Shown: piece after piece, positions 20,143 to 58,430 of the stretch
Numbering within the stretch: position 1 is the first letter of the stretch
Layout of the letters: the number at the start of each line of letters is the position of its first letter
Source: Alphaproteobacteria bacterium
GTDB taxonomy: Bacteria > Pseudomonadota > Alphaproteobacteria > CAAHEQ01 > UBA3637
NCBI GenBank assembly: GCA_045536135.1
Contig: JAZSNA010000003.1
Location: 45,108-109,107 of the forward strand
Length of the DNA stretch: 64,000 bases
Reading direction: 5' to 3'
Made by a program: the position numbers and the translations under genes
The notes under the pieces: model-generated
What the model saw: the letters and a program-made list of their open reading frames with translations, nothing else
Told to the model about the DNA's origin: nothing
Database searches by the model: none

Positions 20143-20144
20143 TA

Positions 20145-20945: not shown

Positions 20946-20956
20946 CTTATAAATCC

Positions 20957-39050: not shown

Positions 39051-39123
39051 CTAGGCTTTCTCTGCCTTTCCTTACAATTACATTGTTGCTTGGAATTCGA
39101 AATTTATCCAGTTAATTCTGCAT
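39051..39123. repeat. 73-bp direct repeat, copy 2
   Basis: See copy 1. It lies between the ParB-MTase stop and the next gene start. Confidence 0.55.
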
Positions 39124-40421: not shown

Positions 40422-40573
40422 ACAAGACACCCTCAAACCCCAGTAAATACAATGGTTTCCGAGTATGGGTGACCAGTAAAGAAAAAGGTGTTTCGCTAGA
40501 AAAATCGGGCGGCTTGCGTCCCCGCATACGAACAGAGCCCAGGAAGGACCCGTTGCCCCGGAGCTGTCCAAGA

Positions 40574-43399: not shown

Positions 43400-43477
43400 T
43401 TTTTCTCCTTTTGTTAATGTTGATACAAAAGGTAAATTCCCGATAAAGTCGAAATGTGCCGAAAAAAAATAATTTTT

Positions 43478-45850: not shown

Positions 45851-45851
45851 T

Positions 45852-46262
45852 TTATTCTCCTTGTTTATCAATACCAAAAAAATATCTGCCAGATATTTTT
45901 CTACCGGTTATTTTTTTTGCAATTGCTGATAGGCTTGGGTACTTCATCCCATTGTATTCAAAGCCATCATTTAGAATAATGACCGAATGTTCAACCTGTT
46001 GGTATTCACGAATAATTCGTGTACCGGTTGGCGGAAGGTTCTTTCTTCCATCCGGAGGGACATACATCTGTGCAATAAGTTTTTGTTGTGCCTTTGGTAA
46101 ACCTCCGTAAGCAAGCTCTTGTATTCGATAAGCTATTCGGGAAACAAAAAACTCTTTATTTTGAGAGATCGTTGGTTCTGTAAAATATTCTTTCCACATT
46201 TCTTGTAGCTCTGGTAAAGATTTATTCTTTAATAAAGCTATTTCAACTACGACCGATTTCAT
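45852..46262 (-). CDS. DUF2924-like protein (conserved partner gene upstream of large serine recombinases)
   Basis: 136 aa. YPSLSAIAKKITGRKISGRYFFG matches my recollection of the DUF2924 hallmark. It abuts the recombinase start. Confidence 0.4.
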   Translation of the reverse strand: MKSVVVEIALLKNKSLPELQEMWKEYFTEPTISQNKEFFVSRIAYRIQELAYGGLPKAQQKLIAQMYVPPDGRKNLPPTGTRIIREYQQVEHSVIILNDGFEYNGMKYPSLSAIAKKITGRKISGRYFFGIDKQGE

Positions 46263-46420: not shown

Positions 46421-46786
46421 TTTTGACCTCCTTTCGAAATGGTAAATTCCCAGAGAAGTCAAAATGTGCCGAAAAAAATTAAAAAAATCTCGTTGTCGGT
46501 ATATCGTATTGAAAAACAACAAAAAAATATTTATAAGGCTAGTTGTCAGTGAATAAAAACAAACCTCTCTTGAGTGGATGGGAAAATTGGACATCATATA
46601 ATTTTATGGAAATTTATAAAAATCAATGTGTTTTTGACCAAGTTGCCAAAAGAAAATGACCACTTGCTCAAGGTATACTTTTACGGCAAAGGTATATGTA
46701 TAAGTTGATTTGATAGCAGAAGACAGCTTGATTTATGAAAATGTGAGAGGAGAGGATGTTGGCTGTTATTGGGCTTTCGCAGGGTA

Positions 46787-46832: not shown

Positions 46833-46909
46833 TGGTCGGGGTGACACGACTTGAACGTGCGACACCTTGCTCCCAAAGCAAGTACTCTACCAGGCTGAGC
46901 TACACCCCG
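46833..46909 (-). tRNA. tRNA-Pro (anticodon UGG)
   Basis: 77-nt cloverleaf on the minus strand: cggggtgtagctcagcctggtagagtacttgctTTGGGAgcaag...ggttcaag...caccccgacca. CCA is encoded. Confidence 0.85.
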
Positions 46910-46962: not shown

Positions 46963-47823
46963 TTATCTTGTATGCAAGTTATTTAATTTGAATGGGTTTT
47001 CGTGATATTTCACAATATTTTTGGGATGTATATTTTGATAAAAATTTTCAGCCTCTTTAAAATTGCGACCGAGTTGTTCGACAGAGTGAGCATCATCGCT
47101 GATAATAATCGGAATATTTTGTTGTTTTATGTTGGATAAAATCCGATAACTGGGATACGGCTCATAGCAATAACTTTTATAATATCCGGTATTAATTTCG
47201 CAAGTCGTCATACAATCTCGCAAGACCTGAACTGTCTGTTCTTCATCATCAATAAATTGTTCGTCACCGCCCAAGCCCACTTTTTTGGGCAAATCCAAAT
47301 GAGCAACGATATCAAAAAAACCGCTTTTGAGGGCCTGTCGAACATTTGTGTAATATTGATGTATCAACATATTTTGTTCCTTTTTTTCCATACGTTTGAC
47401 ATCGTGAAAATTTAATAAATGATTCTTGTGCACCATAAAATGACAAGAACCAATCAAATAATCCGGTTTTAAAATTTCAACAGCTTTTTGAAAAGATTCA
47501 ATCCAAGCCATAGATCCGAAAAAATCCACTTCCATTCCTTTTAATATTTTTATATCGGTTTGTTCCCGTACCCGATCTATTTCTTCATAGTGGTTTTTAA
47601 ATTTTTCAATCGCTTGATTAAAATTTTCGGAAAATATATTTTCATATCCGCCACGCACGGCAAATGAATACATTTTTTGAGAAGTAATGGTCGGATAAAC
47701 AATAAAATGGTTAGAAAATCCGAGTTGTCCCCAATTCAATTTTTCAGCCTGCTCCACCATTTGAGCAACGGTATTTTTGCCATCAAATCCGCGAGTATGT
47801 GTGTGATATGAAAAATCTTGCAT
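46963..47823 (-). CDS. PHP-family phosphoesterase (histidinol-phosphatase-like)
   Basis: N-terminal Y-H-T-H-T His cluster and further His/Asp metal ligands typical of PHP domains. Confidence 0.5.
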   Translation of the reverse strand: MQDFSYHTHTRGFDGKNTVAQMVEQAEKLNWGQLGFSNHFIVYPTITSQKMYSFAVRGGYENIFSENFNQAIEKFKNHYEEIDRVREQTDIKILKGMEVDFFGSMAWIESFQKAVEILKPDYLIGSCHFMVHKNHLLNFHDVKRMEKKEQNMLIHQYYTNVRQALKSGFFDIVAHLDLPKKVGLGGDEQFIDDEEQTVQVLRDCMTTCEINTGYYKSYCYEPYPSYRILSNIKQQNIPIIISDDAHSVEQLGRNFKEAENFYQNIHPKNIVKYHENPFKLNNLHTR

Positions 47824-48177
47824 TATTTCCCCCTTTCAATCACAGTTTTTTACACTACCATAAAAAGGGGGAAAAGTCAATCATTCCAATTCCATTGCTT
47901 TTGTTTTAAATTCGTCTTTTTCTTTTGAAGATAAAAACATTGGAACAATTGTCAATATTTTTAAAATATATGCTAATATCTTTCCCATAATTATACCGCC
48001 TTTGCACCGTTGAAATTTAAAGCTAAAACATTTAAGAATGATTTGATTTTTTTCATAAAATCATCATCTTTGGGTGTCGGGGTTAAGGCACATATTGCAC
48101 TGGACAAGGCAATAACCGAAGAAATTACAATTAAAATTTGTTCCATATTATTAATAATAAAATCCATTTTATACCTC

Positions 48178-48468
48178 CTAAATTATGTTTTTAAAAAATA
48201 TCTCGCTTAAAGTTAAACAAATCGAGCTAAATGCAGCGGCTAAACCAATTGAAACAACCGTCTTTATAGGTGCTATTTCATTACGGGTTATAAAATTGGC
48301 CTCCATTTTTTGAATAATCGTATTGGAAAATTTAAGAAAATCGTTATGAAGCCTATTCACTTGACGATTACTGTTGTTTAAACCTTTTTTGAGTTCAACA
48401 ATCTGATTTTCCAACGCGGAAAATTGTGCCATCAATTTCCCGACCTCCAATTCAAAATCAGTCATCAT
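48178..48468 (-). CDS. hypothetical protein with C-terminal TM helix
   Basis: 96 aa, coiled coil plus a hydrophobic C-terminus. Follows TerL. Confidence 0.25.
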   Translation of the reverse strand: MMTDFELEVGKLMAQFSALENQIVELKKGLNNSNRQVNRLHNDFLKFSNTIIQKMEANFITRNEIAPIKTVVSIGLAAAFSSICLTLSEIFFKNII

Positions 48469-48778
48469 TTCCTCCTTTGTAAAAAATAAAGCTTCCGACT
48501 TGATCTATTGGGATTAAACCAATAGACCAATCCGGAAACTCATCTGTTTTATGAAATCTGATTTTTCTTTTTTCCTTTTTTCCCATCAGATATTTTTGAG
48601 CAATCCGATAACACATTTGATATCGTTGATCATTCGGAATCTCTGATATATCATCATCAACATCAACCAAATCGACAATCGCTTCCGCTTCCGATAAGGA
48701 CGGTTGATATTTATATATCGCCAAAGCTAATTCTTTTATTTGCATCTCCTTCTCTGCCCCTTTTTCATATTTTGACAT
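48458..48778 (-). CDS. hypothetical protein
   Basis: 106-aa ORF overlapping the TerL stop. Confidence 0.25.
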   Translation of the reverse strand: MSKYEKGAEKEMQIKELALAIYKYQPSLSEAEAIVDLVDVDDDISEIPNDQRYQMCYRIAQKYLMGKKEKRKIRFHKTDEFPDWSIGLIPIDQVGSFIFYKGGNDD

Positions 48779-50213
48779 CGTCCAGTGAAAGTGTCGGATT
48801 TAATGCGCCGTATCTCCAATCAATCTTGTTTTGCTTTGTCAATGAGGTCTTTTTAAAGCGAACAATCCCAGACAATAAACATCCGGCAACTGCGTCAAGT
48901 CCGTCATCATGGGACGAGTTATTAACGGGTATCCATTCTTGCATTTCTTCAATAAATTTTGTCTGATAAACGCTTTCATGAACCCATAAAGCGCCTTGAG
49001 ACAATATCGCATCAAAAGCATCTGTGATTCGTACTTCCTTACATGAACGACTATGTTCTTCCTTCACGGCACAAACAATTCCGTTTTTACGAATTTCGTT
49101 ACGCAACAGTTCGGGTAAAAAACGACCGATACCATTAACCTCGATTGATATTTGAGGAATGTAATTTCGCTTAATAAACTCCACAACCATTCGGCATTGT
49201 CTTTGGGCACTTTGTGCGATATCATCAATTTCTAAATAAGATATTTCGTGCAAAAAATATCGCCCATCGTCATCCGAAAAAACACATGCCACCACACTAT
49301 AATCCCCCTTTTCTTTTTTTCCGAACGCCGGATCCCACCACGCTTGCACACCCACCATTTTACACCCATTGATTTTAAGTTCAGATGTTCGATTTGTTTC
49401 GATATACTCTATTGGAGAGGTATATTTTTTTAATTTGGAAACATCTAGTCTGGGTAAAGTCATATGAGTTGCCTCCAAAAGCATTTGGCTTTTAAATTTG
49501 GCCTCACCCGACCGGAGTCTGATTTTTTCTATTTTTTCCAAATCGAATCTTTCCGGCCACCATGATTGTCCCATTTGGTTAAAAATCGGTATTTTTAAAC
49601 TTTTAAAACCCCGTAAAAAACCGTCTGTATCATAAATAGTATCGAATGTATGTGGCGTGCCGACAAAAAGCATCATGCCGCCGGGGACCAATACAAAATC
49701 CAATTCAGATAACTTCGCCCTTAAGTCGTTTCTTTTGGCTTGTGTCGCAGAAGTTTTGGGGACTTCCACATCATCACAAATCACTAAATCCGCCCGAGCA
49801 CCCGTAATGTTGGCACCTAATCCCCGCCCCATTACCGATGGATCACGTAATTCCATTAACCGTTTAATCGTGAACCGATCCGAAGCCCATTGGTCTTTTT
49901 CGTCCGGCTTCATCCCAATACAAAGGGGATGCTTTTCAATAATTCGTTTAATATTTCGAACCATTTTTTTGGATAATTCATAATCCGCTGATAATACTAA
50001 AATCCGTGTATCGGGATATCGATATAAAATCCATGCGCAAAAAAGACCGACGATGGTTGACTTTCCAGAATTTCGAAAAGCCATTAGCAATGTATTTTTT
50101 TCTTTTTTATTCCACTGTTTTTCCAAAAATTCAGAAATAAGTACATGATGTTTTGGAACTTTCAAACCTTGTATTTCATCCCATATCCAAATAAAATCAA
50201 TCAAATTCATCAT
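48765..50213 (-). CDS. terminase large subunit
   Basis: Walker A AFRNSGKST, Walker B LVICDDVE, and a C-terminal RNaseH-like nuclease region with conserved Asp residues. 482 aa. Confidence 0.65.
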   Translation of the reverse strand: MMNLIDFIWIWDEIQGLKVPKHHVLISEFLEKQWNKKEKNTLLMAFRNSGKSTIVGLFCAWILYRYPDTRILVLSADYELSKKMVRNIKRIIEKHPLCIGMKPDEKDQWASDRFTIKRLMELRDPSVMGRGLGANITGARADLVICDDVEVPKTSATQAKRNDLRAKLSELDFVLVPGGMMLFVGTPHTFDTIYDTDGFLRGFKSLKIPIFNQMGQSWWPERFDLEKIEKIRLRSGEAKFKSQMLLEATHMTLPRLDVSKLKKYTSPIEYIETNRTSELKINGCKMVGVQAWWDPAFGKKEKGDYSVVACVFSDDDGRYFLHEISYLEIDDIAQSAQRQCRMVVEFIKRNYIPQISIEVNGIGRFLPELLRNEIRKNGIVCAVKEEHSRSCKEVRITDAFDAILSQGALWVHESVYQTKFIEEMQEWIPVNNSSHDDGLDAVAGCLLSGIVRFKKTSLTKQNKIDWRYGALNPTLSLDDVKI

Positions 50214-50487
50214 TTATTTCATCCTTTAAATCTTTTGTGGCTATGTGTGCTTTTTTTATCAATTCCAGCAAATTATCATTTTCATCCGTTTCGGCAAAAG
50301 ACATTAATTTCAAGCACATCATTAAATGTTGTAAAGTTGATTTACAGGCCATTTGATAAGATTGAATATCTTTTATATTTTCCGGATACGGTAAGTTGAT
50401 TAAATCATCATATTGTTTCAATACTTGCTTGATTTTTGAATAAATATCATCACGACGAATTAATGTTGAATTCATTATTTCAACCAA
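50197..50487 (-). CDS. hypothetical protein
   Basis: 96 aa. It occupies the TerS/small-gene position upstream of TerL. Confidence 0.2.
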   Translation of the reverse strand: MVEIMNSTLIRRDDIYSKIKQVLKQYDDLINLPYPENIKDIQSYQMACKSTLQHLMMCLKLMSFAETDENDNLLELIKKAHIATKDLKDEINDEFD

Positions 50488-50804
50488 CCCATCGATTTTA
50501 ACAGGTTCTTTTGATAATTCTTTTTATCTTTTTTTATCTTTAATTTTTTTTCCTGTATTTCCGTATCATTTTTGCGATTATATTCACGATCCATTTCATC
50601 TTGAACCGCCAGCGCCGAGCCAGACAAAGGGCTTATTCCCGCCGAGCCCAATTTAGCACGATAACCTGCTTTTTCGCCTTTTAATAAGTTTTGATTATTT
50701 TTTATTGTTTCTTGTAATGATTTTATTTCTTCTTTTGAATTATCGGAAAATAAATGATTAACAATTAATTTTCCGGTTGAATTTAAACTTGCCATTTTAT
50801 TCAC
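50475..50804 (-). CDS. hypothetical protein
   Basis: 109-aa ORF, K-rich. Confidence 0.2.
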   Translation of the reverse strand: MNKMASLNSTGKLIVNHLFSDNSKEEIKSLQETIKNNQNLLKGEKAGYRAKLGSAGISPLSGSALAVQDEMDREYNRKNDTEIQEKKLKIKKDKKNYQKNLLKSMGWLK

Positions 50805-52707
50805 TCACTTTCAGTTGAACTTGAACAGATACCAATTTAAAAGCTCTGGGATCATCACTTTTGATTTCCCATAAAGGACTGAGACCGTCTTTATTCCACC
50901 CCAAAGCATAAACACAAACATCTTGGTTGCGGTGTTGAGGCAATGTATCCATATAATATTTGGCAGATAATTTGGGTAAAATAATCTGTTGGAAACCACT
51001 GCCGACATCAATAACAACCGATTGTGTATCAATAACCCGAAGTTTGATATTCACCAACCTGACGGAACGCATCGGCATTGTTCCGTTTGAATTTTCAATA
51101 TACGGCGGTAATGGGATAATTTGATGAGCATAGGGTAAGCCCACTATTAACGAAGAACACAATCGATTTAATAAAATATGACTTTCTTCAATATCCATCA
51201 TAACATTTTCATATCCGTCCGTAATCACTTTAACACGATATCCGATTAACGGTGTCATATCGGACCAAACCTTTGTTTTTTCCTCGCTTTCACCAATCAA
51301 GGAACAATCTGTATATACCCGATCATCAAACACTTCCAAATATGTTTTATCCCCTCTTAAAACCAAGACATATGTATCATCTCCGATAATACAAACAGAT
51401 AAAAACTTACCCAAAGTTTCTTGAATACTCCAAGCTAAAACTTCCTCGGTTCTGTAATTAGTCAAAGTCGCCATTTGCCCGTTTTCCATCACAACATAGA
51501 CAATTCTTTTTCGGCCATCATAAGCCATATCAATCGGATAATTGATTAAATCATCGGCTAAAATTGATATATTTTTAGCTTGATAAGCCTGTTCTAAATC
51601 CTCGAATAAAAATTCACGAATTTCTTTCCCGTTGGACGATACAAATAATGTCGCACCGGATACATCCATCGGCGGGATATAACGATTTGTCGGCGAACCG
51701 ATTTTCGTTTGTCTTTTTAATTGAATTTCTTTTGGGGTTAAAGGATCTCCGGACACCATCCATTCACCACCGGAAGTAAATACCTGTAAGTGTCGCCCCG
51801 GGACAACGCATCGAATGGCATTAACCTGATCGGATAAAATTGAAAAGTCTATCGCCTCATCATCCAAACCCGTACCAATATCAAAATTCATAATCGAAAA
51901 AGTTTTTGACAACCATAAATTATTGGGCAAATCTCTGGAACCTCCGATAACCAATCGACCTTGGAAAAAAGTGACAGTCACCGGATAACCACGAATTGTG
52001 GAAAAGGCAGGTTCTCCATAATTCATCACATTTTGATGACCTTTTGTCGGTGCTTTAAGAATACTTCCTTTGGCTTCCTTTGACGAAGAAACTGATTTTA
52101 TCTTGACATATCCGTCATCCACCTTAAATATTAATCCGACATGTTCGTTAACGAATAAGTCATGAGATGATGTTATTGTTATTTCTCCGGAAGTCCCTGA
52201 TAAAGTAATAGTTGAATTATTTGTCGTAAATTTATGATAAGGTTGATAAATAATTCCTTCTTTTGAAATATCATATACCCAATCCGTCAATAAAAAGCTT
52301 TCATCTTTTTGCCTTAAAATCATCTTTGGCGGATAATTCGGATGCACCATTAATAATGTATCGGCAGACTGTGTCCAAGCAATTTGTTCAATATCATTTC
52401 CGTCCCATGGCACAGATAATGAAGATAAAAATTCTTGATTTTTATAAATATCAATCCGTTTATGGCATAGGACAAATAAATAATTTTGTTGTGTATTAAA
52501 ACTAAATTCAATCAACCGCTTTGCATCATTTATTTCAGATAAAAATCGTGTTCCGCTTCGTCTTTGTATTCCACCAATCGGATCTATAATAACATTTCGA
52601 AGTTCTTGTGCTCCATTTTGATACGATCTTAAATCTGATCGTCCAAAGACATGTTTTGAAATATATCCGGCTGTAAAGTTTGTTTGATTTTGTTTTAAAG
52701 TTGTCAT
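50797..52707 (-). CDS. tail tubular protein B-like (T7 gp12 position)
   Basis: 636 aa, large and beta-rich. Assignment is purely positional (second gene after capsid). Confidence 0.25.
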   Translation of the reverse strand: MTTLKQNQTNFTAGYISKHVFGRSDLRSYQNGAQELRNVIIDPIGGIQRRSGTRFLSEINDAKRLIEFSFNTQQNYLFVLCHKRIDIYKNQEFLSSLSVPWDGNDIEQIAWTQSADTLLMVHPNYPPKMILRQKDESFLLTDWVYDISKEGIIYQPYHKFTTNNSTITLSGTSGEITITSSHDLFVNEHVGLIFKVDDGYVKIKSVSSSKEAKGSILKAPTKGHQNVMNYGEPAFSTIRGYPVTVTFFQGRLVIGGSRDLPNNLWLSKTFSIMNFDIGTGLDDEAIDFSILSDQVNAIRCVVPGRHLQVFTSGGEWMVSGDPLTPKEIQLKRQTKIGSPTNRYIPPMDVSGATLFVSSNGKEIREFLFEDLEQAYQAKNISILADDLINYPIDMAYDGRKRIVYVVMENGQMATLTNYRTEEVLAWSIQETLGKFLSVCIIGDDTYVLVLRGDKTYLEVFDDRVYTDCSLIGESEEKTKVWSDMTPLIGYRVKVITDGYENVMMDIEESHILLNRLCSSLIVGLPYAHQIIPLPPYIENSNGTMPMRSVRLVNIKLRVIDTQSVVIDVGSGFQQIILPKLSAKYYMDTLPQHRNQDVCVYALGWNKDGLSPLWEIKSDDPRAFKLVSVQVQLKVSE

Positions 52708-53249
52708 GAGCGAACTCCGATTAAAGAAAAGTCATTGATACGAATAGGTGTATTTTGTTGTGAATCAATTAATTTGGCCTGATTTAATAAACTTTGATAA
52801 TTTTTTTCCAAAAATTCCGTCCGAGAAGTACTTTCAGTCAACGGCAAACAAAATTCAAAAGCCAATTTCGAAACCAATAAGTCTTCAAAAAAAGGCGGAA
52901 ATTCGTCCTCTTCCACTTGATGAATATAAGTTAATTTAGGCATTGGATCGTTGGTGTGAATTGTTTTATGATAGATTCGATAATCCGATTTTTCCAAAGA
53001 TAAAGCTCTTAAAAAATCAAGAGGCAACTGATATACAAAACTATATCCCGACATCGGTTTTTCGTCCAATCGATTTAGGGAAGCAATAGATGTGGCAAAA
53101 TGCCATGGATAAATAGAGAGTAAGGTATTTTTAGATGAAGCATAAAGTTGTTGAGCAATTTCAGATTCTGTTGTTCCTTCGTTAAAGGATGATATTGTTT
53201 TTGCCCCAATTTTAACAAAGGCTTTTGAACAAATTGATAATTTAGACAT
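52704..53249 (-). CDS. tail tubular protein A-like (T7 gp11 position)
   Basis: Start set at MSKLSICSK with a CAGGAG RBS, about 181 aa (T7 gp11 is 196 aa). Positional. Confidence 0.25.
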   Translation of the reverse strand: MSKLSICSKAFVKIGAKTISSFNEGTTESEIAQQLYASSKNTLLSIYPWHFATSIASLNRLDEKPMSGYSFVYQLPLDFLRALSLEKSDYRIYHKTIHTNDPMPKLTYIHQVEEDEFPPFFEDLLVSKLAFEFCLPLTESTSRTEFLEKNYQSLLNQAKLIDSQQNTPIRINDFSLIGVRS

Positions 53250-53260
53250 AAATAACTCCT

Positions 53261-53300
53261 GAATAAAAAAAGGGGGTAAGGCAGAACCCTGCCTCACCCC
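53261..53300 (-). terminator. rho-independent terminator after the capsid gene
   Basis: On the minus strand: ggggtgaggcag-ggttc-tgccttaccccc followed by TTTTTTT. Confidence 0.45.
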
Positions 53301-53338
53301 GCAAAAAAGGAAAGAAAATAAAAAAATCAGATTATCGG

Positions 53339-54178
53339 TTAGGCATTGTCTGCAACTGTAATCGCAACAACACCTTTCGGATCGATTAAGCAAGCTCCTT
53401 GGCTCATCATGTTGTTAACAAAATGAGCGGCCCGATCGCCATGCCATGTAATATCTGTTTTGATATCCATACCAACCCCTAATCCAACGGCTGTTTTATG
53501 ATAAATAAAACATTTGCGTTTACCGTCTTCAACTGGTAATCCGGTATGCATGATGAAATTAATTCCCATCCATTTTCTGGATTCACATCCAGCTAAATAC
53601 GGTGTATTATCTCCAACATAATCTGCGCTTGAAAATTCCGGCAAGCTCAATAAAACATTCCATTGTTTCGGGCCAACCAAAGCATAACGTTCACCATCAT
53701 CCGGAATATCATTTTCATTTAATTTTTCAAAAGCACTTAAAATATTTTCTTTTGACAATACGGCACTTCCGTCTCCGATAATTTGTTCGCTATCACTTAA
53801 TGTATTTAAAGCGTTGATTACCAATTCATCCGTTTTACGCCCCAAGGCATAAGCACCGGCGGTCGCAATTGCTTTGCGTTCGTCATGTGCAATTTTAATT
53901 TCATCTAGTGAATCAATCCAATCGCCGGCATAATAATCTGCCAAGCTACATTCAATCGGTTCATGGATTAAACTCATCAACGGCACTGTTCCATTCCGAG
54001 CTTCCTTTTGTCCGGCCGTTCCCTTTCCAATTTTTTGGAAAGTTGTACTGGCTCCCCGAACATTATTTTTAACACGAACGGTTGATTTTAATTTTGAACC
54101 CATTTGTTGATAAGCATTACAAACTTCGGCTTGAAAATGCTTAACAAAAGAAATATCAACTTCTGTTGATGTTGTCAT
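53339..54178 (-). CDS. major capsid protein (putative)
   Basis: 279 aa, lying between scaffold-like and tail-tube-like genes. A strong terminator follows it, as is typical after major capsid genes. Confidence 0.4.
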   Translation of the reverse strand: MTTSTEVDISFVKHFQAEVCNAYQQMGSKLKSTVRVKNNVRGASTTFQKIGKGTAGQKEARNGTVPLMSLIHEPIECSLADYYAGDWIDSLDEIKIAHDERKAIATAGAYALGRKTDELVINALNTLSDSEQIIGDGSAVLSKENILSAFEKLNENDIPDDGERYALVGPKQWNVLLSLPEFSSADYVGDNTPYLAGCESRKWMGINFIMHTGLPVEDGKRKCFIYHKTAVGLGVGMDIKTDITWHGDRAAHFVNNMMSQGACLIDPKGVVAITVADNA

Positions 54179-54294
54179 TTTATTCTCCTATAAAAAATAA
54201 ATTTAAAGGGTTATGGGAAACCGATCCCGCCCATAAATACCATAAAAATCAGGTTGATTTTATTCAATTATCTGACGAAAAATTTTTTTCTGTT

Positions 54295-55032
54295 TTAGGG
54301 ATAAAGACGTTTAAACCCATCTGCAACTTTTTTAACAATATCCGGATCTTGATCTTTCCAATATTTCGGATCTCGCATTATTTTCTTTAATCCGTCTTCA
54401 TCTAAAACTTCTGTATCAGAAGATATTTTATTCAAAACTTTCGGTTCGTTTGAATTCATCATCTGATACATACACATTACACCGTCATATGTCGTCGATA
54501 ACGCATCAACAACTTCCGCCGGCAATTTACTTTGCGCCCACGATAAAATCTGTGGTGCAACTGAATTAAAATTTTCTTTTGAACCAAAAAATTGGTACAA
54601 CGCTTGTCTTTGTTTATCGGCTTCAAATTCCATTGCCAACTCATTGATAATTGGCAAAACTTTTTCGCCCGCTAAATCATATACGGCTTGAAGCTGTTTA
54701 TTTGTAAAGCCTAATTGACGCAATTTTTCATTAACTTCTTTATCAACTTCCAACATCGGATGAGATGGGATAATTTTGTATTCATCGGCATTTTCCGGCA
54801 CACCGATTGCCCGATAAAAAGATTTAATCTCCTCTTCCGAGGAGTTTTCATTAGGAATATTCATTGATGTTGACATCTTTTTTTCCAAATTCAAATAAGA
54901 ATTTAACAATGCATCAACATTTATTTCACCGGTTTGATTATTTAAAAATTTTTCCGGTATTTGTTTTTTTTCTGTTAGAATATTTTCAGTCATTTTTTTC
55001 CTTTCTGATAGAACGATTAACAATGCATTCAA
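54295..55032 (-). CDS. scaffolding protein (putative)
   Basis: 245 aa, acidic and helical. It lies between the portal and capsid genes. Confidence 0.3.
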   Translation of the reverse strand: MNALLIVLSERKKMTENILTEKKQIPEKFLNNQTGEINVDALLNSYLNLEKKMSTSMNIPNENSSEEEIKSFYRAIGVPENADEYKIIPSHPMLEVDKEVNEKLRQLGFTNKQLQAVYDLAGEKVLPIINELAMEFEADKQRQALYQFFGSKENFNSVAPQILSWAQSKLPAEVVDALSTTYDGVMCMYQMMNSNEPKVLNKISSDTEVLDEDGLKKIMRDPKYWKDQDPDIVKKVADGFKRLYP

Positions 55033-55249
55033 TTAATCGGACAAGATCTCTTTGTCCTTCCAAATGTCGGAGTTCATTATCCGATGATGATGGTGATAAG
55101 CTTTTATATATTGTCATTTTTTTCAAAACTTCTAAAACTTTTTTTCCCCGATTTGATGTAAAAACAACCGCAAAATCATCCGATAAATCCGTTATCAAAT
55201 TTGTTTCCGTTTTTCCATTTAAAAAACCCCATGTCATTTTTACCTCCAA
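54986..55249 (-). CDS. hypothetical protein
   Basis: 87-aa ORF. Confidence 0.2.
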   Translation of the reverse strand: MEVKMTWGFLNGKTETNLITDLSDDFAVVFTSNRGKKVLEVLKKMTIYKSLSPSSSDNELRHLEGQRDLVRLIECIVNRSIRKEKND

Positions 55250-56658
55250 TCTTTAAACAATCGCAAAGGAATATTCATTTTTTGAGCCAAATATTGAACA
55301 ATATCTTTTGAATTTAAAAATGTTGTCATTTCCGGCTCGATGGCATTTAAACAATTCAAAAAATTAATCATTTGATTTGCCTCTGTTTGAGTCTGTCCAT
55401 GGACAAGCGGAGATTTAAAATTGATATCGATAACATGATTTTCACAAATAATTTGCGGTATCAGACCTCGATTTTTCAAAATTAACAGAGCCCGTTCAAT
55501 TAAAGGGTTTAATAGTTCAATTTGAAGTCTGGAATAAACAGCCCCCAAAATACGAGCCATCTCGGTATTTCTGGTTAAAACTTCTGTTGCTGTCATCTTA
55601 TTATCGTATATTTTCCCCAATTTATCCGCCAACAAGCTGTGTTGAATTCGGCTTCTTAAATCATTTAAAACAATTTGAGAAACATCAAAATTACCCGCAG
55701 CCTCCAACGGAATAAGCCCCTTTGATCCCACTGCTTTTGGTATAATCGTTCCAGGGATAAGTTTAATATTGGATGGATTTAAAACACCATCATCTTCTGC
55801 TTGCCAAATACCCGTCACGGCAATTGTCGCATTTTTTAATATCAATTCAACAACTTTGTTAACCGTTTTAATATCGGGTAAGGCCTTCATAACCGGAGAA
55901 CGACCATACACCTCTTTGGGTAATTTTTGCCAGCGAAAAACAATAAACGGCGATTGTTCAAAATATCCCCTTTTTAATATCGGGAAACTTTCTTTTTCAA
56001 ACAGTTGACTATTTTGACTGTCTATAAAAACCGTATATTCGTATCCGGTTTTCATTTGTGGAATTAAAGCTTCTATAACGGATATTTTCTCGTCTTCACT
56101 CTTTTCTTTTATCGGCAAATTAACTTCCCCGAAACGATATTGAATTTCGGAAATTGTCATTTGTGTCTGACGGAAAACCGTATCAAGCCGACCGGTTAAA
56201 CCTTGTTCCAAATAAACTTCAAATAATGGAATAGCCGTAAAATTAAACGCACTTTGAGCCCCTATTTTATTTTGTTCGAACAACAGACATGCCGTTCCCA
56301 TTGTAATCAAATCCAAGAAACATTGATGTATCTCAACCGTAAAATTTGAATAATTAAAATGAGACGACAAAATATTCGATATCATTTCCAATTCAGAATT
56401 AAAATGTTCATCTGATGCATTTTGTACTGTTAAATCAAACCACTTTGTCCATGTCGGTGTTAATTCAGATAATAAAGATGCGGCCAATTGATCGACACAA
56501 TCCGGAGCCGTTCCGTCAAATAAACGATCAGATACTTTTTCACCACCAATGACACTATTGGGCATTGTAAATTCATAACATTCTCGCCATAAATTTTCCT
56601 TCAAAGATCGTTTTTCTTTGGCTTTGATAAAAAGTTGATATAATTCTTTTGTGCCCAT
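55240..56658 (-). CDS. portal (head-to-tail connector) protein, T7 gp8-like
   Basis: The N-terminus YQLFIKAKEKRSLKENLWRECYEFTMPN resembles T7 gp8 YERLKNDRAPYETRAQNCAQYTIPSL, and DQLAASLLSELTP resembles NNLASKLMLALFP. Confidence 0.5.
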   Translation of the reverse strand: MGTKELYQLFIKAKEKRSLKENLWRECYEFTMPNSVIGGEKVSDRLFDGTAPDCVDQLAASLLSELTPTWTKWFDLTVQNASDEHFNSELEMISNILSSHFNYSNFTVEIHQCFLDLITMGTACLLFEQNKIGAQSAFNFTAIPLFEVYLEQGLTGRLDTVFRQTQMTISEIQYRFGEVNLPIKEKSEDEKISVIEALIPQMKTGYEYTVFIDSQNSQLFEKESFPILKRGYFEQSPFIVFRWQKLPKEVYGRSPVMKALPDIKTVNKVVELILKNATIAVTGIWQAEDDGVLNPSNIKLIPGTIIPKAVGSKGLIPLEAAGNFDVSQIVLNDLRSRIQHSLLADKLGKIYDNKMTATEVLTRNTEMARILGAVYSRLQIELLNPLIERALLILKNRGLIPQIICENHVIDINFKSPLVHGQTQTEANQMINFLNCLNAIEPEMTTFLNSKDIVQYLAQKMNIPLRLFKDWR

Positions 56659-56659
56659 A

Positions 56660-56860
56660 CTACTCTCCTAATAATTTCTTTCGTTTTATTATCGAGTTTT
56701 CACCCAAAATCCCCTTCATTGAAGTTTGAACGGTCTGTAATCCGGCATGCCGAGCTAAATAGCTTTTATCTTCTTTTTCTGTCGGCAGACTTTGAGTTTT
56801 ATCGACAACTTCATTTTGAAGTCCTATAATTTCTTTTACCTTTTTCATAATTTCTCCCAT
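56660..56860 (-). CDS. hypothetical protein
   Basis: 66-aa ORF. Confidence 0.2.
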   Translation of the reverse strand: MGEIMKKVKEIIGLQNEVVDKTQSLPTEKEDKSYLARHAGLQTVQTSMKGILGENSIIKRKKLLGE

Positions 56861-56929
56861 AAAAAAAACGGGACACTTTTATCCCGTCTTGTTTATATCT
56901 ATAACAAATTTTAAATCAAAAGTCAAGGA

Positions 56930-57319
56930 TTATTTTCCTATTTCTCTTAAAAAATATTTAAATAGCTGAAAAGGCGTTAAAATTCCATATCGACGAATCC
57001 CTAAAATTCGTTTAACAACACCGACACAAGTCAAAATTGACGGATAAAAACAAGAATCATTTAAATCATTTATCCAAAAATGAAAAACACGATATCCCCT
57101 TTCAATCATTATATTTTCAATATTATTGACATGTATTTCCATAACATCAATACACCCGGCCAAGGGGTCTATTAAAATATAGCGATGATTATCCGGCAAA
57201 ATAATCATAGTGTGATAAAAACCCCTTTTTAAAAGCTTCATCCATCGGAAATGCGGTTGCCCTCCAAAGGCAATTATCGCATATTTATATCTTTTTGAAA
57301 AATTTTTATTTATATTCAT
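56930..57319 (-). CDS. hypothetical protein
   Basis: 129-aa ORF. Confidence 0.25.
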   Translation of the reverse strand: MNINKNFSKRYKYAIIAFGGQPHFRWMKLLKRGFYHTMIILPDNHRYILIDPLAGCIDVMEIHVNNIENIMIERGYRVFHFWINDLNDSCFYPSILTCVGVVKRILGIRRYGILTPFQLFKYFLREIGK

Positions 57320-57336
57320 TCTATTAAAAGTTGTTT

Positions 57337-57699
57337 TTATATTTGGTGTATTATTTTTTTAACAAAAAGCAATTTTCCCAATATTTGAATTGCCTCATTC
57401 CAAATTCGACACTGTTTCATACTTGATCCGAATTTAACATGTGGCGGCAATTGTTTTTGACCATAATAATTCAAAATTTCAAGATGTTCTTTTTTTATTT
57501 TATTTTTTATAAATAATTGTTTTATATAAAATAAAATATCGACATATTCGCATGGTCGTTGAAATGGTCCGGAAGTCCGTCTGCCTAAATCCTTTGGACT
57601 TTCACGACACGAACAACACCAAAACCATGCCTCTTCTGTATTTTCAAAAAGTTCTATCGGACGCAAATCCATATTATCAAAATCAATATTTTTTTTCAT
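57337..57699 (-). CDS. hypothetical Cys-rich protein
   Basis: Start at MKKNIDF with a GGGGG RBS. It is divergent from the repressor gene. Confidence 0.3.
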   Translation of the reverse strand: MKKNIDFDNMDLRPIELFENTEEAWFWCCSCRESPKDLGRRTSGPFQRPCEYVDILFYIKQLFIKNKIKKEHLEILNYYGQKQLPPHVKFGSSMKQCRIWNEAIQILGKLLFVKKIIHQI

Positions 57700-57833
57700 C
57701 TTTAACCCCCATATATCTTGACATATAATCATATTCAATACACGTGTCAATAGAAAAAATAAAAAAATATGATTTTTTTCCTATTGATTTTTGTTTTTTC
57801 CTATTATATCATCCAAATAAAGAAAGGATAAGA

Positions 57834-58430
57834 ATGTCATTATCGTACTTTGAAATTTGGCGTGGAATTGATCGCCTTGCTCAAAACAAGGGATTATCTC
57901 CTTCAGGATTGGCAATTAAGGCCGGATTGGACCCGACATCTTTTAATAAAAGCAAACGAATCGGACCGGACGGAAAACGCAGATGGTTATCCATGGAAAG
58001 CTTGAACAAGGTTTTATCAGCCACCCATACCTCTTTTTTGGAATTTATTTCGCTGTGCGGACAAGAAGCTTTATCCTCTCAATCTTTACCCTTAATCGTC
58101 ACAAAAGATTTATTAACATATACAGACGAAAAAGGATACTTTATTCCATCAGACAACATTGATACTTTTGATATACCGATGGCTTTACCGAACGACTGTT
58201 ATGCCGTGGAACTTTCCCAAGGGATATACAACTATCAACCCGGCGATATATTAATTGTCAATCCTCAAACAGAAATTCGTCGGGGAGATCGTATTATCAT
58301 CAAGCACGGCGATACGATTTCCATTGATAAGTTTATCCGTCAAACTAAAAATACCCTGGAAACGGAAAACGAAAATATTGATATTGACACTGTTGATTGG
58401 ATGACACGGATTATTTGGGTCAGACAATAA
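57834..58430 (+). CDS. LexA/CI-like repressor (peptidase S24 family)
   Basis: N-terminal HTH-like region (LAQNKGLSPSGLAIKAGLD) and a C-terminal S24 beta-barrel segment (GDILIVNPQTEIRRGDRIIIKHGDTISIDKF). Start set at MSLSYFEIW with an AAAGGA RBS. Confidence 0.5.
   Translation: MSLSYFEIWRGIDRLAQNKGLSPSGLAIKAGLDPTSFNKSKRIGPDGKRRWLSMESLNKVLSATHTSFLEFISLCGQEALSSQSLPLIVTKDLLTYTDEKGYFIPSDNIDTFDIPMALPNDCYAVELSQGIYNYQPGDILIVNPQTEIRRGDRIIIKHGDTISIDKFIRQTKNTLETENENIDIDTVDWMTRIIWVRQ

What the first reader, a model, noticed from the sequence alone, without database searches (positions are those of the whole stretch)
47881..58430. T7-like capsid, portal and tail-tube gene set with a CI/LexA-like repressor but no RNAP, fibre, core proteins or integrase
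The gene order portal, scaffold, capsid (terminator), tube A/B-like, small genes, TerL mirrors T7 genes 8-12...19. The portal N-terminus resembles T7 gp8. The cluster is about 10 kb, lies between tRNA-Pro and core genes, has host-like base composition, and is controlled by a divergent S24 repressor. An inverted TTGACA / TGTCAA motif lies in the 57700-57833 divergent intergenic region. This could be a decaying podoviral prophage, a phage-inducible satellite, or a domesticated particle-forming system (GTA- or tailocin-like).
Basis: partly seen in the sequence, partly recalled or inferred. Interest (0 to 1): 0.55.

Follow-up and report, generated by a model that had tools for sequence, protein, structure and literature searches.

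The report
Domesticated T7-like particle gene cluster
This 10.5-kb cluster is one copy of a widespread, apparently undescribed family of T7-type phage head, stubby-tail and DNA-packaging genes that alphaproteobacteria have inherited vertically and kept under strong selection, so it looks like a host-owned particle-making system (possibly a new kind of gene transfer agent), not a dying prophage.

Summary
Window 47.9-58.4 kb encodes, on the minus strand, a T7 gp8-type portal, gp9-type scaffold, capsid, terminator, gp11-like adaptor, gp12-like nozzle, small proteins and a gp19-type TerL, opposite a divergent HTH/S24 repressor. It has no RNAP, fibre, core proteins, replication genes or integrase.

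The serine recombinase 2 kb away belongs to a separate, GC-richer lambda-like prophage at 14-46.6 kb.

The same architecture recurs in hundreds of alphaproteobacterial genomes and metagenome contigs. It includes two unannotated genes: a Q/AlpA-like antiterminator fold and a permuted papain-like Cys/His hydrolase. In other families it sits next to housekeeping genes. Its proteins diverge in step with the adjacent lysyl-tRNA synthetase (r 0.92-0.96). dN/dS falls to 0.03-0.13 where dS is unsaturated. A third of loci carry a GTTC-N7-GTTC LexA box.

Best reading (about 0.6): a domesticated, repressor- and antiterminator-controlled, podovirus-type particle system that may be GTA-like. Particle production and DNA content are untested.

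The window copy is a reduced variant with no fibre and no LexA box, and its repressor has lost the catalytic serine.

I found no description of this family in the literature.

The parts
57834..58430 (+). Divergent repressor with an N-terminal HTH and a C-terminal S24-like domain. The listed ORF starts at 57744; the likely true start is the ATG at 57834. The catalytic Ser is replaced in this copy.
   Evidence: PF00717 at 22.0 bits, below the cut-off, and phrog_4 'transcriptional repressor'. In alignment A4 the family consensus is GDSM...K, but the window reads ELSQGIYN--YQPGD. A homolog is present in 68 of 80 loci.
57700..57833 (.). Divergent regulatory region. It holds ATAGGAAAA boxes at 57776-57784 and 57796-57804. 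The minus-strand promoter has its -35 TTGACA at 57750-57745 and its -10 TATATG at 57727-57722. A candidate plus-strand promoter for the repressor lies at 57784-57812. There is no LexA box.
   Evidence: Sequence. Across 62 loci, TAGGA/TCCTA occurs in 59 (shuffled mean 16.8), TTGAC in 45 (9.0) and GTTC-N7-GTTC in 21 (0.2). Motif searches in the window are.
57337..57699 (-). s137, the first gene of the operon. It is a candidate Q/AlpA-like antiterminator or sigma-region-4-like regulator.
56930..57319 (-). s129, a permuted papain-like / NlpC-P60-like Cys-His hydrolase. It is a candidate peptidoglycan hydrolase.
56865..56890 (-). Intrinsic terminator between the early pair (s137, s129) and the structural genes.
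   Evidence: An 11-bp stem followed by a T run. A terminator-like hairpin occupies the same position in 60 of 124 loci, including 11 of 13 loci in the closest clade.
56660..56860 (-). s66, a small conserved protein upstream of the portal gene.
   Evidence: Homologs in 12 of 80 loci (the closest clade); the analogous family c14 occurs elsewhere. No PHROG hit.
55240..56658 (-). Portal, of the T7 gp8 family.
   Evidence: PF12236 at 1e-113, phrog_332 and T7 portal structures at 5e-11.
54986..55249 (-). Small Bbp19-like protein (family c9) between portal and scaffold.
   Evidence: tblastn to c9 family members at 8e-15. phrog_5977. The homolog in Magnetospirillum carries PF25181 Phage_Bbp19.
54295..55032 (-). 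Scaffold, of the T7 gp9 type. The likely true start is the ATG at 54990.
   Evidence: PF05396 at 6e-10. Homologs in 74 of 80 loci.
53339..54178 (-). Major capsid protein, family PF19821.
   Evidence: PF19821 at 1.6e-71, phrog_3437, and PDB 9eg4_A at 6e-21. Not similar to T7 gp10A by BLASTP.
53273..53300 (-). Strong intrinsic terminator after the capsid gene, at the same position as T7 Tphi.
   Evidence: A 12-bp stem with 8 GC pairs and a T run. T7 Tphi lies after gene 10. A terminator-like hairpin occurs here in 48 of 118 loci.
52704..53249 (-). Tail adaptor (181 aa), in the gp11 position.
   Evidence: phrog_394 at 3.5e-43, phrog_9239 'tail tubular protein', and PDB 'Connector protein' 8ck1_E at 1.4e-6.
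50797..52707 (-). Tail nozzle (636 aa), gp12-like.
   Evidence: PF25675, phrog_376 at 2.7e-127, PDB 'Tail nozzle' 8ck1_A at 2e-47, and T7 gp12 at E 7e-4.
50475..50804 (-). s109, a small coiled-coil protein after the nozzle gene. By position it could be an internal virion protein.
   Evidence: Homologous to families c37, c52 and c60 in other clades. No significant match to T7 gp13 or gp14.
50197..50487 (-). s96b, a small protein overlapping the TerL start. It is a small-terminase candidate by position only.
   Evidence: Conserved directly upstream of TerL, even where the TerL block has moved. phrog_31793, function unknown. No match to T7 gp18.
48765..50213 (-). Large terminase, of the T7 gp19 type. 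Walker A (NSGKST) and Walker B (LVICDD) are intact.
   Evidence: phrog_38 at 1e-81, PF17289 and PF22530, and T7 gp19 at E 3e-27. The motifs are read directly from the translation.
47991..48778 (-). Three small distal genes: s106 (48458-48778), s96a (48178-48468, with a C-terminal TM segment) and s58 (47991-48167, with a TM segment). They are candidate lysis or membrane proteins.
   Evidence: Conserved after TerL in the closest clade. s58 matches phrog_9685 at 1.7e-13. The TM segments are read from the translations.

Best explanation
The cluster is a chromosomally fixed, vertically inherited derivative of a T7-supergroup podovirus. The host lineage has kept it as a self-contained module that makes and fills particles. 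That makes it a domesticated 'viriform', possibly a gene transfer agent.

**Proposed mechanism**
1. The HTH/S24 repressor binds ATAGGAA/TTCCTAT operators around a sigma-70 promoter and keeps the operon silent. The operators and promoter are shown by conservation; binding is inferred.
2. In the canonical family member, DNA damage releases repression in two ways: the repressor cleaves itself through its Ser-Lys dyad, and host LexA leaves a GTTC-N7-GTTC box. The motifs are shown; induction is inferred.
3. The first two genes are transcribed up to an intrinsic terminator. s137, which has a Q/AlpA-like fold, then lets RNA polymerase read through that terminator and the strong one after the capsid gene. 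The gene order and terminators are shown; antitermination is inferred from fold and layout.
4. Portal, scaffold and capsid build a procapsid. The gp19-type terminase fills it, probably with a small partner protein. The gp11-like adaptor and gp12-like nozzle close it with a stubby tail. This step is inferred from homology.
5. s129, a Cys/His hydrolase, and the small membrane proteins after TerL release the particles by lysis. This step is inferred.

**What the particle can and cannot do.** The family encodes no replication module, no integrase and no large ejection proteins. The particle therefore cannot propagate its own genome as a phage does. It most likely carries host DNA.

**The window copy.** It is a reduced variant with no fibre gene and no LexA box, and its repressor cannot cleave itself. 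Its trigger and its receptor-binding part are unknown or lie elsewhere in the genome.
For: **Architecture is conserved.** The order S24 | s137, s129, portal, Bbp19-like, scaffold, capsid, adaptor, nozzle, small protein, (fibre), small protein, TerL recurs across the collections scanned.
- 80 of 80 fetched GTDB loci carry the portal. The scan found 247 relatives. S24 is present in 68, s129 in 72 and s137 in 66 of the 80.
- The scans found 136 portal relatives in IMG/VR and 136 in metagenome contigs. The 80 IMG/VR contigs fetched show the same order.

**The viral region is only this cluster.** Provirus calls start at S24 or s137 and end just after TerL. They are 10-14 kb long and have no terminal repeats.

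**Flanks are housekeeping genes.**
- Independent gene calls with Pfam in Roseomonas and Magnetospirillum show only housekeeping neighbours.
- A Pfam scan of 148 flanking ORFs from 25 loci found no integrase, recombinase or replication family in two or more loci.

**Inheritance looks vertical.**
- Flanks are conserved within clades.
- Class-I LysRS lies beside S24 in 13 Acetobacteraceae loci and also in three loci whose records carry other labels (a Rhodospirillaceae MAG, an unclassified Alphaproteobacteria MAG and a 'Rhodobacterales' MAG).
- Pairwise identity of portal, capsid, nozzle, TerL and S24 tracks that of LysRS, with r = 0.96, 0.96, 0.92, 0.94 and 0.94. The ranges are almost equal: LysRS 0.57-0.97, portal 0.54-0.96.

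**Selection is purifying.**
- Median dN/dS is 0.13-0.40 over up to 60 locus pairs per gene (4 to 60, depending on the gene).
- Where dS is unsaturated, dN/dS is 0.03-0.13 for the portal in Azospirillum and 0.036 in the closest clade.

**Regulation is tied to the host.** LexA boxes occur in 21 of 62 regulatory regions, against 0.2 expected by chance.

**Regulator and lysis candidates.** The s137 fold matches AlpA and Q. Terminators are conserved in position. s129 has a Cys/His hydrolase fold.

**Distance from phages.** The nearest cultured phage is only 34% identical in the portal and 39% in the capsid, and it carries 784-aa and 1248-aa proteins that the element lacks.

**The window copy.** All ORFs are intact and tightly packed, and composition is host-like.
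Against: - No particle, packaged DNA or transfer has been observed for any member. 'GTA' is inference only.
- Purifying selection and conserved order are also seen in active phages.
- The co-divergence test uses a physically linked neighbour and non-independent pairs.
- The capsid could be a T=7 shell large enough to hold the whole 10-13 kb locus, so the GTA criterion 'cannot package itself' is not shown.
- For the window copy itself, no relative closer than 58% was found. Neither selection nor synteny could be measured for its own lineage.
- The window copy lacks a fibre, lacks the LexA box and has lost the repressor's catalytic serine. These features could be steps towards loss of function.
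- In the closest clade the upstream flank varies between species.
- Azospirillum keeps only the first six genes at this locus. Either the system is split across the genome there, or these genes have a role that does not need a capsid.
Confidence: 0.6

Rival explanations
1. This particular copy is an inert remnant on its way to loss. It descends from the conserved family but is no longer inducible or able to make functional particles.
For: The repressor's catalytic Ser is replaced and two residues are deleted. There is no LexA box. No fibre homolog occurs anywhere in the 64 kb. No close relatives exist with which to show selection in this lineage.
Against: All 16 ORFs are intact, have family-typical lengths and are tightly packed, and TerL keeps its Walker motifs. 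Operators, promoter and both terminators are retained. The fibreless layout is shared by the whole closest clade and by two further groups of loci (L019/L032/L037/L038 and L045/L071). In the closest clade the portal dN/dS is 0.036. Loss of the serine recurs in several lineages that keep all other genes.
Confidence: 0.15
2. It is a helper-dependent phage satellite that builds its own capsid and borrows fibres, ejection proteins or replication from a helper podovirus.
For: It is small (10-13 kb). It has its own capsid, portal and terminase but no fibre or core proteins in many members. Prophage callers pick it up as a viral region.
Against: No integrase, primase or replication gene recurs in or next to the element. 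Its location is conserved next to housekeeping genes, and it co-diverges with LexRS's neighbour gene class-I LysRS across families. IMG/VR contigs have no terminal repeats. Several clades carry their own tailspike or fibre gene.
Confidence: 0.1
3. It is domesticated but serves a purpose other than DNA transfer, for example damage-induced suicide lysis, a killing or adhesion particle, or a protein shell.
For: The repressor, antiterminator and lysis-gene layout resembles the AlpR/AlpA programmed-lysis circuit of P. aeruginosa (PMC7969949, PMC9371919). Azospirillum keeps only S24, s137, s129, portal, the Bbp19-like gene and scaffold at this locus, under very strong selection.
Against: A gp19-type terminase with intact ATPase motifs is conserved and under purifying selection wherever the full cluster exists. 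That argues for DNA packaging. The whole head and tail-tube set is retained, not just the lysis genes.
Confidence: 0.1
4. It is part of a complete, active temperate T7-like prophage whose other genes lie nearby.
For: Phage genes and a recombinase lie within 2-30 kb.
Against: Those genes form a complete lambda-like siphovirus with its own terminase, portal, protease, capsid, tape measure and J-like protein. Its GC is about 9 points higher, and tRNA-Pro and a PHP gene separate it from the cluster. On the other side lie an AAA kinase-like gene, an M23 peptidase gene and rpsF-rpsR-rplI. No relative has additional phage genes.
Confidence: 0.03

Closest known systems
Bacteriophage T7 structural and packaging module (genes 8-12, 18-19)
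   Same: The gene order is the same: portal, scaffold, capsid, terminator, adaptor, nozzle ... small protein, TerL. The portal is in the gp8 family. The scaffold is in the gp9 family. The nozzle is related to gp12. TerL is related to gp19.
   Different: There is no RNA polymerase, no DNA replication genes, no internal core proteins gp14-16 and, in this copy, no fibre gp17. The capsid is in sequence family PF19821, not gp10. The element is chromosomally fixed and under a repressor and antiterminator instead of a phage RNAP cascade.
Pelagibacter phage EXVC031P 'Hodr' (OQ414635.1), the nearest cultured phage
   Same: It has homologous nozzle, adaptor, capsid, scaffold and portal genes in the same order.
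   Different: Identity is only 34% (portal) and 39% (capsid). The phage genome is 34 kb with about 60 genes, including 784-aa and 1248-aa proteins after the nozzle gene. tblastn finds no homolog of S24, s137, s129 or TerL in it.
RcGTA-type gene transfer agents of Alphaproteobacteria
   Same: Both are phage-derived head, tail and terminase clusters without integrase or replication genes. Both are vertically inherited, under purifying selection and wired into host regulation. Accessory parts may be encoded elsewhere in the genome (my knowledge of RcGTA; PMC5721377, PMC9662315).
   Different: RcGTA has a different ancestry: an HK97-type siphovirus with a long tail, regulated by CtrA, GafA and quorum sensing. 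Here the ancestor is a T7-type podovirus and the control is an S24 repressor, a Q-like protein and LexA boxes. DNA packaging and transfer are shown for RcGTA but not for this family.
BaGTA of Bartonella
   Same: It is an alphaproteobacterial, chromosomally fixed phage-derived cluster that co-diverges with its host (PMC3610622).
   Different: The published gene table shows TerL (447 aa) followed by a 620-aa portal and other structural genes in a different order. BaGTA is linked to a run-off replication origin and restricted to one genus. I made no sequence comparison.
FpGTA of Faecalibacterium (PMC12946183)
   Same: It is described as a GTA-like element that is 'most likely podovirus-like' and is found in gut bacteria.
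   Different: It occurs in Firmicutes and has two loci with baseplate and fibre genes. No relationship to this family was tested. Its authors call it the first podovirus-like GTA-like element, which implies that no alphaproteobacterial one was known to them.
AlpR/AlpA damage-induced lysis circuit and PrtR/PrtN pyocin control in Pseudomonas aeruginosa
   Different: There is no sequence similarity, and the fold match is modest. The controlled operon here is a complete head, tail-tube and terminase set.
Capsid-forming PICIs and other phage satellites
   Same: They are about 10-15 kb and encode their own capsid, portal and terminase while lacking other virion parts.
   Different: Satellites carry an integrase, att sites and replication or interference genes, and they sit at variable sites. 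None of these features is seen here. This element also encodes its own tail adaptor and nozzle.

Membership tests
T7-like phage (Autographiviridae-type genome) | gp8-type portal, gp9-type scaffold and gp19-type large terminase in T7 order | tested here: met
   PF12236 at 1e-113 and PF05396 at 6e-10. T7 portal structures at 5e-11. gp19 at E 3e-27. Gene order compared with the T7 record.
T7-like phage (Autographiviridae-type genome) | gp11 adaptor and gp12 nozzle | tested here: met
   Nozzle: PF25675, 8ck1_A at 2e-47, and gp12 at E 7e-4. Adaptor: phrog_394, phrog_9239 and 8ck1_E. A direct BLASTP of the adaptor against gp11 is negative.
T7-like phage (Autographiviridae-type genome) | gp10-family major capsid protein | tested here: not met
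   The capsid is PF19821. BLASTP against gp10A gives E 0.38. The fold class was not compared.
T7-like phage (Autographiviridae-type genome) | Single-subunit RNA polymerase and a DNA replication module | tested here: not met
   Every ORF between 47.9 and 58.4 kb is accounted for, and none is longer than 636 aa. None is present in relatives either.
T7-like phage (Autographiviridae-type genome) | Internal core or ejection proteins (gp14-16) and tail fibre (gp17) | tested here: not met
   No large ORF lies between the nozzle and TerL genes. No fibre homolog occurs in the 64-kb window. The s109 family shows no match to gp13 or gp14. Some other clades carry a 450-800 aa tailspike or fibre gene.
Gene transfer agent / viriform | Phage-derived structural cluster fixed in the chromosome, with no integrase, excision or replication functions | tested here: met
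   In the window, the only recombinase belongs to the neighbouring siphovirus.
Gene transfer agent / viriform | Vertical inheritance and co-divergence with the host | tested here: met
   This is a family-level result. Flanks are conserved within clades. LysRS is a neighbour in loci labelled as different families. Identity correlates with LysRS at r 0.92-0.96. It could not be tested for the window's own lineage because no relative exceeds 58% identity.
Gene transfer agent / viriform | Long-term purifying selection on all structural genes | tested here: met
   Median dN/dS is 0.13-0.40. It is 0.03-0.13 where dS is unsaturated.
Gene transfer agent / viriform | Expression under host regulatory control | tested here: inconclusive
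   GTTC-N7-GTTC occurs in 21 of 62 regulatory regions, against 0.2 expected, but not in the window. No expression data are available.
Gene transfer agent / viriform | Particles package host DNA without preference for their own genes and transfer it to recipients | not testable with these tools
   This needs induction, particle purification and sequencing of protected DNA.
Phage satellite (PICI / capsid-forming PICI type) | Integrase with att sites, a replication module, and variable insertion sites | tested here: not met
   No such family recurs in the flanks or inside the element. Location is syntenic within clades.
LexA/CI-type self-cleaving S24 repressor | N-terminal HTH plus C-terminal S24 fold | tested here: inconclusive
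   The window protein scores 22.0 bits on PF00717, below the 23.3 cut-off. Homologs carry PF00717, and one also has a faint HTH_26 hit. The N-terminal domain is highly conserved.
LexA/CI-type self-cleaving S24 repressor | Catalytic Ser-Lys dyad | tested here: not met
   The family consensus is GDSM...K. In the window copy the Ser column holds Ile and two residues are deleted, while the Lys is retained.
Q / AlpA-type processive antiterminator (s137) | Structural similarity to Q21 or AlpA | tested here: inconclusive
Q / AlpA-type processive antiterminator (s137) | Promoter-proximal regulator gene followed by an intrinsic terminator ahead of the controlled operon | tested here: met
   The terminator at 56890-56865. 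A terminator-like hairpin holds the same position in 60 of 124 loci.
Permuted papain-like / NlpC-P60 hydrolase (s129) | The fold, with conserved catalytic His and Cys | tested here: inconclusive

The most novel reading that the evidence does not exclude
This is a third, independently domesticated gene-transfer-agent lineage of Alphaproteobacteria. It derives from a T7-type podovirus and predates the split of the carrier lineages. Those carriers include Acetobacteraceae, Azospirillum, Magnetospirillum and Magnetovibrio relatives, Geminicoccaceae, Micavibrio, Odyssella-like bacteria and gut or rumen lineages. The element is switched on by DNA damage through a LexA-like repressor, host LexA and a Q/AlpA-like antiterminator. 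It delivers host DNA from a minimal particle that lacks ejection proteins.
Probability: 0.35. Interest if true: 0.85.

Novelty: new variant of a known kind. Interest (0 to 1): 0.72.

Why it matters
Only a handful of domesticated phage-particle systems are known, and the alphaproteobacterial ones (RcGTA, BaGTA) shape ideas about how and why bacteria keep such machines.

A T7-derived family that is widespread in the carrier lineages listed above would add an independent case with a different ancestor and a different control logic. That logic combines an SOS-linked repressor with an antiterminator. The particle would be unusually small in gene count: portal, scaffold, capsid, adaptor, nozzle, terminase and a few small proteins.

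The family can be tested directly, because cultured carriers exist (Pseudoroseomonas coralli M0104, Magnetospirillum aberrantis, Azospirillum spp., Dankookia sp. P2).

There is also a practical point. Prophage callers routinely label these 10-14 kb regions as viruses (IMG/VR holds more than 100). That inflates prophage counts and virus-host links for these taxa.

Two large protein families with no Pfam model also gain a working hypothesis: s137 (about 1700 clusters) and s129 (about 1200 clusters).

Tried and rejected
- **Bartonella BaGTA.** This was my first guess, from the low GC and the small cluster. I rejected it. The closest portals come from other alphaproteobacteria, and the published BaGTA gene table has a different order and a 620-aa portal.
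- **The neighbouring recombinase as the element's integrase.** Rejected. It sits inside a complete siphoviral prophage of different composition. I found no att-like direct repeat for that prophage.
- **Single-sequence homolog search with s129.** It found only itself. The source organism stays unidentified, beyond being a low-GC alphaproteobacterium.
- **Sequence searches for s129 and s137.** Pfam and PDB sequence searches were empty. Only fold comparison gave leads.
- **Small proteins against T7.** s96b against T7 gp18, and the s109 family against gp13 and gp14, gave hhalign probabilities below 1%. The 'small terminase' and 'internal protein' labels rest on position only.
- **First all-pairs dN/dS run.** It timed out. 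I repeated it on a sample. Those values are inflated by dS saturation, so I added less diverged pairs.
- **Terminal repeats on IMG/VR contigs.** None found.
- **Metagenome scan for closer relatives of the window copy.** None above 58%.
- **Rfam scan.** Only the two tRNAs.
- **Literature.** Eight full-text searches turned up no description of this family. A 2025 peat-moss virome paper notes shared phage-like regions in Acetobacteraceae, but it describes P2/Mu-type baseplate genes.

Full report
**1. What is in the window**

The minus strand between 47,991 and 57,699 carries sixteen tightly packed, intact ORFs. Reading in the direction of transcription, they are:

| Feature | Coordinates | Evidence |
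|---|---|---|
| s137 | 57337-57699 | see section 4 |
| s129 | 56930-57319 | see section 4 |
| intrinsic terminator | 56890-56865 | |
| s66 | 56660-56860 | |
| portal | 55240-56658 | PF12236, 1e-113 |
| small Bbp19-like protein | 54986-55249 | |
| scaffold | 54295-55032 | PF05396 |
| capsid | 53339-54178 | PF19821, 1.6e-71 |
| strong terminator | 53300-53273 | |
| 181-aa adaptor | 52704-53249 | phrog_394; PDB 'Connector protein' 8ck1_E |
| 636-aa nozzle | 50797-52707 | PF25675; PDB 'Tail nozzle' 8ck1_A, 2e-47 |
| s109 | 50475-50804 | |
| s96b | 50197-50487 | |
| TerL | 48765-50213 | phrog_38, 1e-81 |
| s106, s96a, s58 | 47991-48778 | |

An HTH/S24-like repressor is transcribed divergently from 57834.

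Direct comparison with the T7 record confirms the T7 kinship of three proteins:
- the portal, against T7 gp8 structures at 5e-11;
- TerL, against gp19 at 24% identity over its full length, E 3e-27;
- the nozzle, against gp12 at E 7e-4.

The position of the post-capsid terminator matches T7 Tphi. The capsid and adaptor are not detectably similar to gp10A and gp11 by BLASTP. 'T7-like' therefore holds for the module and its order, not for every protein's sequence family.

**2. What surrounds it**

tRNA-Pro (46833-46909) and a PHP-domain gene (46963-47823) lie on one side. On the other side lie an AAA kinase-like gene, an M23 peptidase gene and rpsF-rpsR-rplI.

Beyond tRNA-Pro, from about 14.3 to 46.6 kb, sits a complete lambda-like siphoviral prophage. 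It has its own TerL, portal, protease, capsid, tape measure, J-like protein, ParB-methyltransferase and a large serine recombinase at 44144-45877. Its structural genes have GC 0.444 and GC3 0.405.

The T7-like cluster has GC 0.350 and GC3 0.29. That is close to host core genes (0.377 and 0.26) and to the immediate flanks (0.352).

The two phage-derived regions are therefore independent. 'No integrase' remains true of the T7-like cluster itself.

**3. The cluster is one member of a large, conserved family**

A portal-based scan of one genome per species found 247 relatives, all at 58% identity or less. Nearly all come from records labelled as Alphaproteobacteria. A few MAG labels differ and are probably binning errors. 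The records include gut and rumen MAGs, Azospirillum, Roseomonas/Pseudoroseomonas, Dankookia, Magnetovibrio, Micavibrio, Geminicoccaceae and Odyssella.

In the 80 loci fetched, the same order recurs: S24 | s137, s129, (small), portal, Bbp19-like, scaffold, capsid, (small), adaptor, nozzle, small protein, [fibre], small protein, TerL, small proteins. S24 is present in 68 loci, s129 in 72 and s137 in 66.

Variants exist:
- One clade has moved the block 'small protein + TerL' in front of the portal, as in Pelagibacter phage Hodr.
- Some clades carry a 450-800 aa tailspike or fibre gene after the nozzle. It has a pectate-lyase-like or LamG-like domain.
- The window, its closest clade and two further groups of loci (L019/L032/L037/L038 and L045/L071) have no fibre gene.
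- Azospirillum species retain only the genes from S24 to scaffold at this locus.

IMG/VR holds 136 relatives. In the 80 fetched, most provirus calls begin at S24 or s137, and the full-length ones end shortly after TerL. They are 10-14 kb long and have no terminal repeats.

Independent gene calls with Pfam labels in Pseudoroseomonas coralli M0104 and Magnetospirillum aberrantis show only housekeeping neighbours.

A Pfam scan of 148 flanking ORFs from 25 loci found Lnt, RF-2, XRE regulators and metabolic enzymes as the recurrent families. No integrase, recombinase or replication family occurred in two or more loci.

**4. The two unannotated conserved genes**

s137 and s129 have no Pfam or PDB sequence match. 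They define families of about 1700 and about 1200 90%-identity clusters. Every member is labelled hypothetical, including proteins from Magnetospirillum, Phaeospirillum and Roseomonas.

These scores are modest. I treat 'antiterminator' and 'peptidoglycan hydrolase' as working assignments.

**5. Regulation**

Alignment of the divergent intergenic regions of 62 loci shows three conserved elements:
- ATAGGAA/TTCCTAT half-sites in 59 of 62 loci, against a shuffled mean of 16.8. In some clades they form a perfect palindrome, TTCCTATAAATAGGAA.
- A TTGAC(A) -35 box facing s137 in 45 of 62 loci, against 9.0.
- GTTC-N7-GTTC between the promoter and s137 in 21 of 62 loci, against 0.2.

From my own knowledge (work on Rhodobacter and reviews of LexA-box evolution), GTTC-N7-GTTC is the LexA box of Alphaproteobacteria. 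I did not re-verify this here.

The family consensus of the repressor has the canonical GDSM serine and the lysine of self-cleaving S24 repressors.

A terminator-like hairpin separates s129 from the portal gene in 60 of 124 loci, including 11 of 13 in the closest clade. Another follows the capsid gene in 48 of 118 loci.

The layout is a damage-sensitive repressor, then a small Q/AlpA-like protein, then a terminator, then a long operon. This parallels the AlpR/AlpA circuit, in which AlpA loads onto RNA polymerase at the promoter and carries it past an intrinsic terminator (PMC7969949, PMC9371919).

The window copy departs from the canonical form in three ways:
- It keeps two ATAGGAAAA boxes (57776-57784 and 57796-57804), the -35 TTGACA (57750-57745) and both terminators.
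- It has no GTTC-N7-GTTC.
- Its repressor has Ile in place of the catalytic Ser, plus a two-residue deletion. Loss of the serine recurs in several other lineages.

**6. Vertical inheritance and selection**

Flanking genes are conserved within clades.

In 13 Acetobacteraceae loci, S24 lies next to MprF and class-I lysyl-tRNA synthetase. LysRS is also the neighbour, or near-neighbour, in three loci whose records carry other labels (a Rhodospirillaceae MAG, an unclassified Alphaproteobacteria MAG and a 'Rhodobacterales' MAG).

Over the 15 loci with a near full-length LysRS, pairwise amino-acid identity of the element's proteins correlates with that of LysRS:

| Protein | r against LysRS |
|---|---|
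| portal | 0.96 |
| capsid | 0.96 |
| nozzle | 0.92 |
| TerL | 0.94 |
| S24 | 0.94 |

The ranges are nearly the same: LysRS 0.57-0.97, portal 0.54-0.96. The structural genes therefore diverge about as slowly as an aminoacyl-tRNA synthetase, and in step with it.

There are caveats. The genes are physically linked and the pairs are not independent.

NG86 dN/dS medians are 0.13-0.40 over up to 60 sampled locus pairs per gene (4 to 60, depending on the gene), and no pair exceeds 0.86. dS is saturated in many of those pairs. In the less diverged Azospirillum set, dN/dS is 0.03-0.13 for the portal, 0.02-0.12 for S24 and 0.0-0.21 for s129. In two unsaturated pairs of the closest, fibreless clade, the portal value is 0.036.

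This rules out neutral decay for the family.

The nearest cultured phage, Pelagibacter phage Hodr, is far more distant (34% in the portal, 39% in the capsid) than the chromosomal copies are from one another. It encodes large post-nozzle proteins that the family lacks.

**7. Interpretation**

The best-supported reading is a domesticated T7-supergroup particle system. It is host-owned, vertically inherited, regulated by a repressor, an antiterminator and in many lineages LexA, and able to build a head, fill it with DNA and close it with a short tail.

With no replication module, no integrase and no ejection proteins, it cannot behave as a phage. A GTA-like role is the most natural one but is unproven.

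Two observations remain unexplained:
- Azospirillum keeps the truncated locus under strong selection.
- Several clades, including the window's, have no fibre gene.

Either other parts are encoded elsewhere in the genome, as is known for RcGTA, or the retained genes serve another function.

For the window copy, no close relatives exist, so its functional status rests on two things: its ORFs and control elements are intact, and its fibreless layout is shared with lineages under selection.

**8. Novelty**

Full-text searches found no description of this family. [quoted passage not shown] BaGTA differs in gene order and portal size.

I class the finding as a new variant of a known kind, namely a domesticated phage-particle system. 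The ancestor is new (T7-type), the control circuit is new, and two uncharacterised protein families belong to it.

Noticed in passing
window 14300-46600: A complete lambda-like siphoviral prophage lies on the minus strand, with structural-gene GC about 0.44 against about 0.37 for the host. It encodes TerL 32163-34106, portal 30425-31933, protease 29404-30516, capsid 28035-29063, tape measure 22274-24892, a J-like protein 15440-17662, a ParB-methyltransferase 39104-40372, a SAM-synthetase-like gene 40956-41957 and a large serine recombinase 44144-45877 next to tRNA-Pro. No att repeat was found.
   Followed up: partly
window 19977-21790: Three tandem copies of an 806-848 bp unit (74-76% identical) sit in the tail-fibre region of the siphoviral prophage. 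They suggest a triplicated fibre or assembly cassette.
   Followed up: no
window 40568-40937: Four copies of a 26-nt repeat (GATAGTATCTCGTTAGTATGATACTA) occur in the siphoviral prophage. Three are spaced exactly 51 nt apart, between the ParB-methyltransferase and SAM-synthetase-like genes. They look like iterons or operators.
   Followed up: no
window 43427-43472 and 46437-46482: A 46-nt direct repeat (85% identical) occurs on either side of the serine recombinase region. Its meaning is unknown.
   Followed up: no
window 4677-14220: A block of nine same-strand ORFs has very low GC (0.27-0.34), between tRNA-Phe and the prophage. Only two ORFs were scanned. One is a Peptidase_S51 and the other has no hit.
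   Followed up: no
window 56933-56941: A third exact ATAGGAAAA box lies at the very end of s129, just upstream of the early terminator. It might be a further binding site for the repressor or for s137.
   Followed up: no
L018, L020, L021, L023, L026, L029, L036 (Azospirillum and a related unnamed MAG), positions about 8300-12700: These loci keep only S24, s137, s129, portal, the Bbp19-like gene and scaffold. A GGDEF/EAL gene and other host genes follow directly. The portal still evolves at dN/dS 0.03-0.13. Either the system is split across the genome or these genes have a capsid-independent role.
   Followed up: partly
L001-L013, downstream of TerL (e.g. L002 19432-21369): In the clade closest to the window, a 165-aa XRE-type HTH regulator and apolipoprotein N-acyltransferase (Lnt) usually follow the element on the opposite strand. 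The XRE gene might be a second regulator of the element. It has no homolog in the window.
   Followed up: partly
MT838907.1 (phages collection): A 5-kb 'Bacteriophage sp.' record from human faecal samples carries the portal (47% identity) and capsid (63% identity) of this family. It is probably a fragment of such a chromosomal element, not a phage genome.
   Followed up: no
T7 gp14 residues 76-100 vs window 50475-50804 (s109 residues 43-70): hhalign placed the conserved motif of the s109 family (..yRA..Ga.Gi...sGSs.AV) on T7 gp14 'QAIGSIRAAIGESMLEGSSM'. The probability was only 0.2%, so this is not evidence of homology. A structure comparison could be worthwhile.
   Followed up: no
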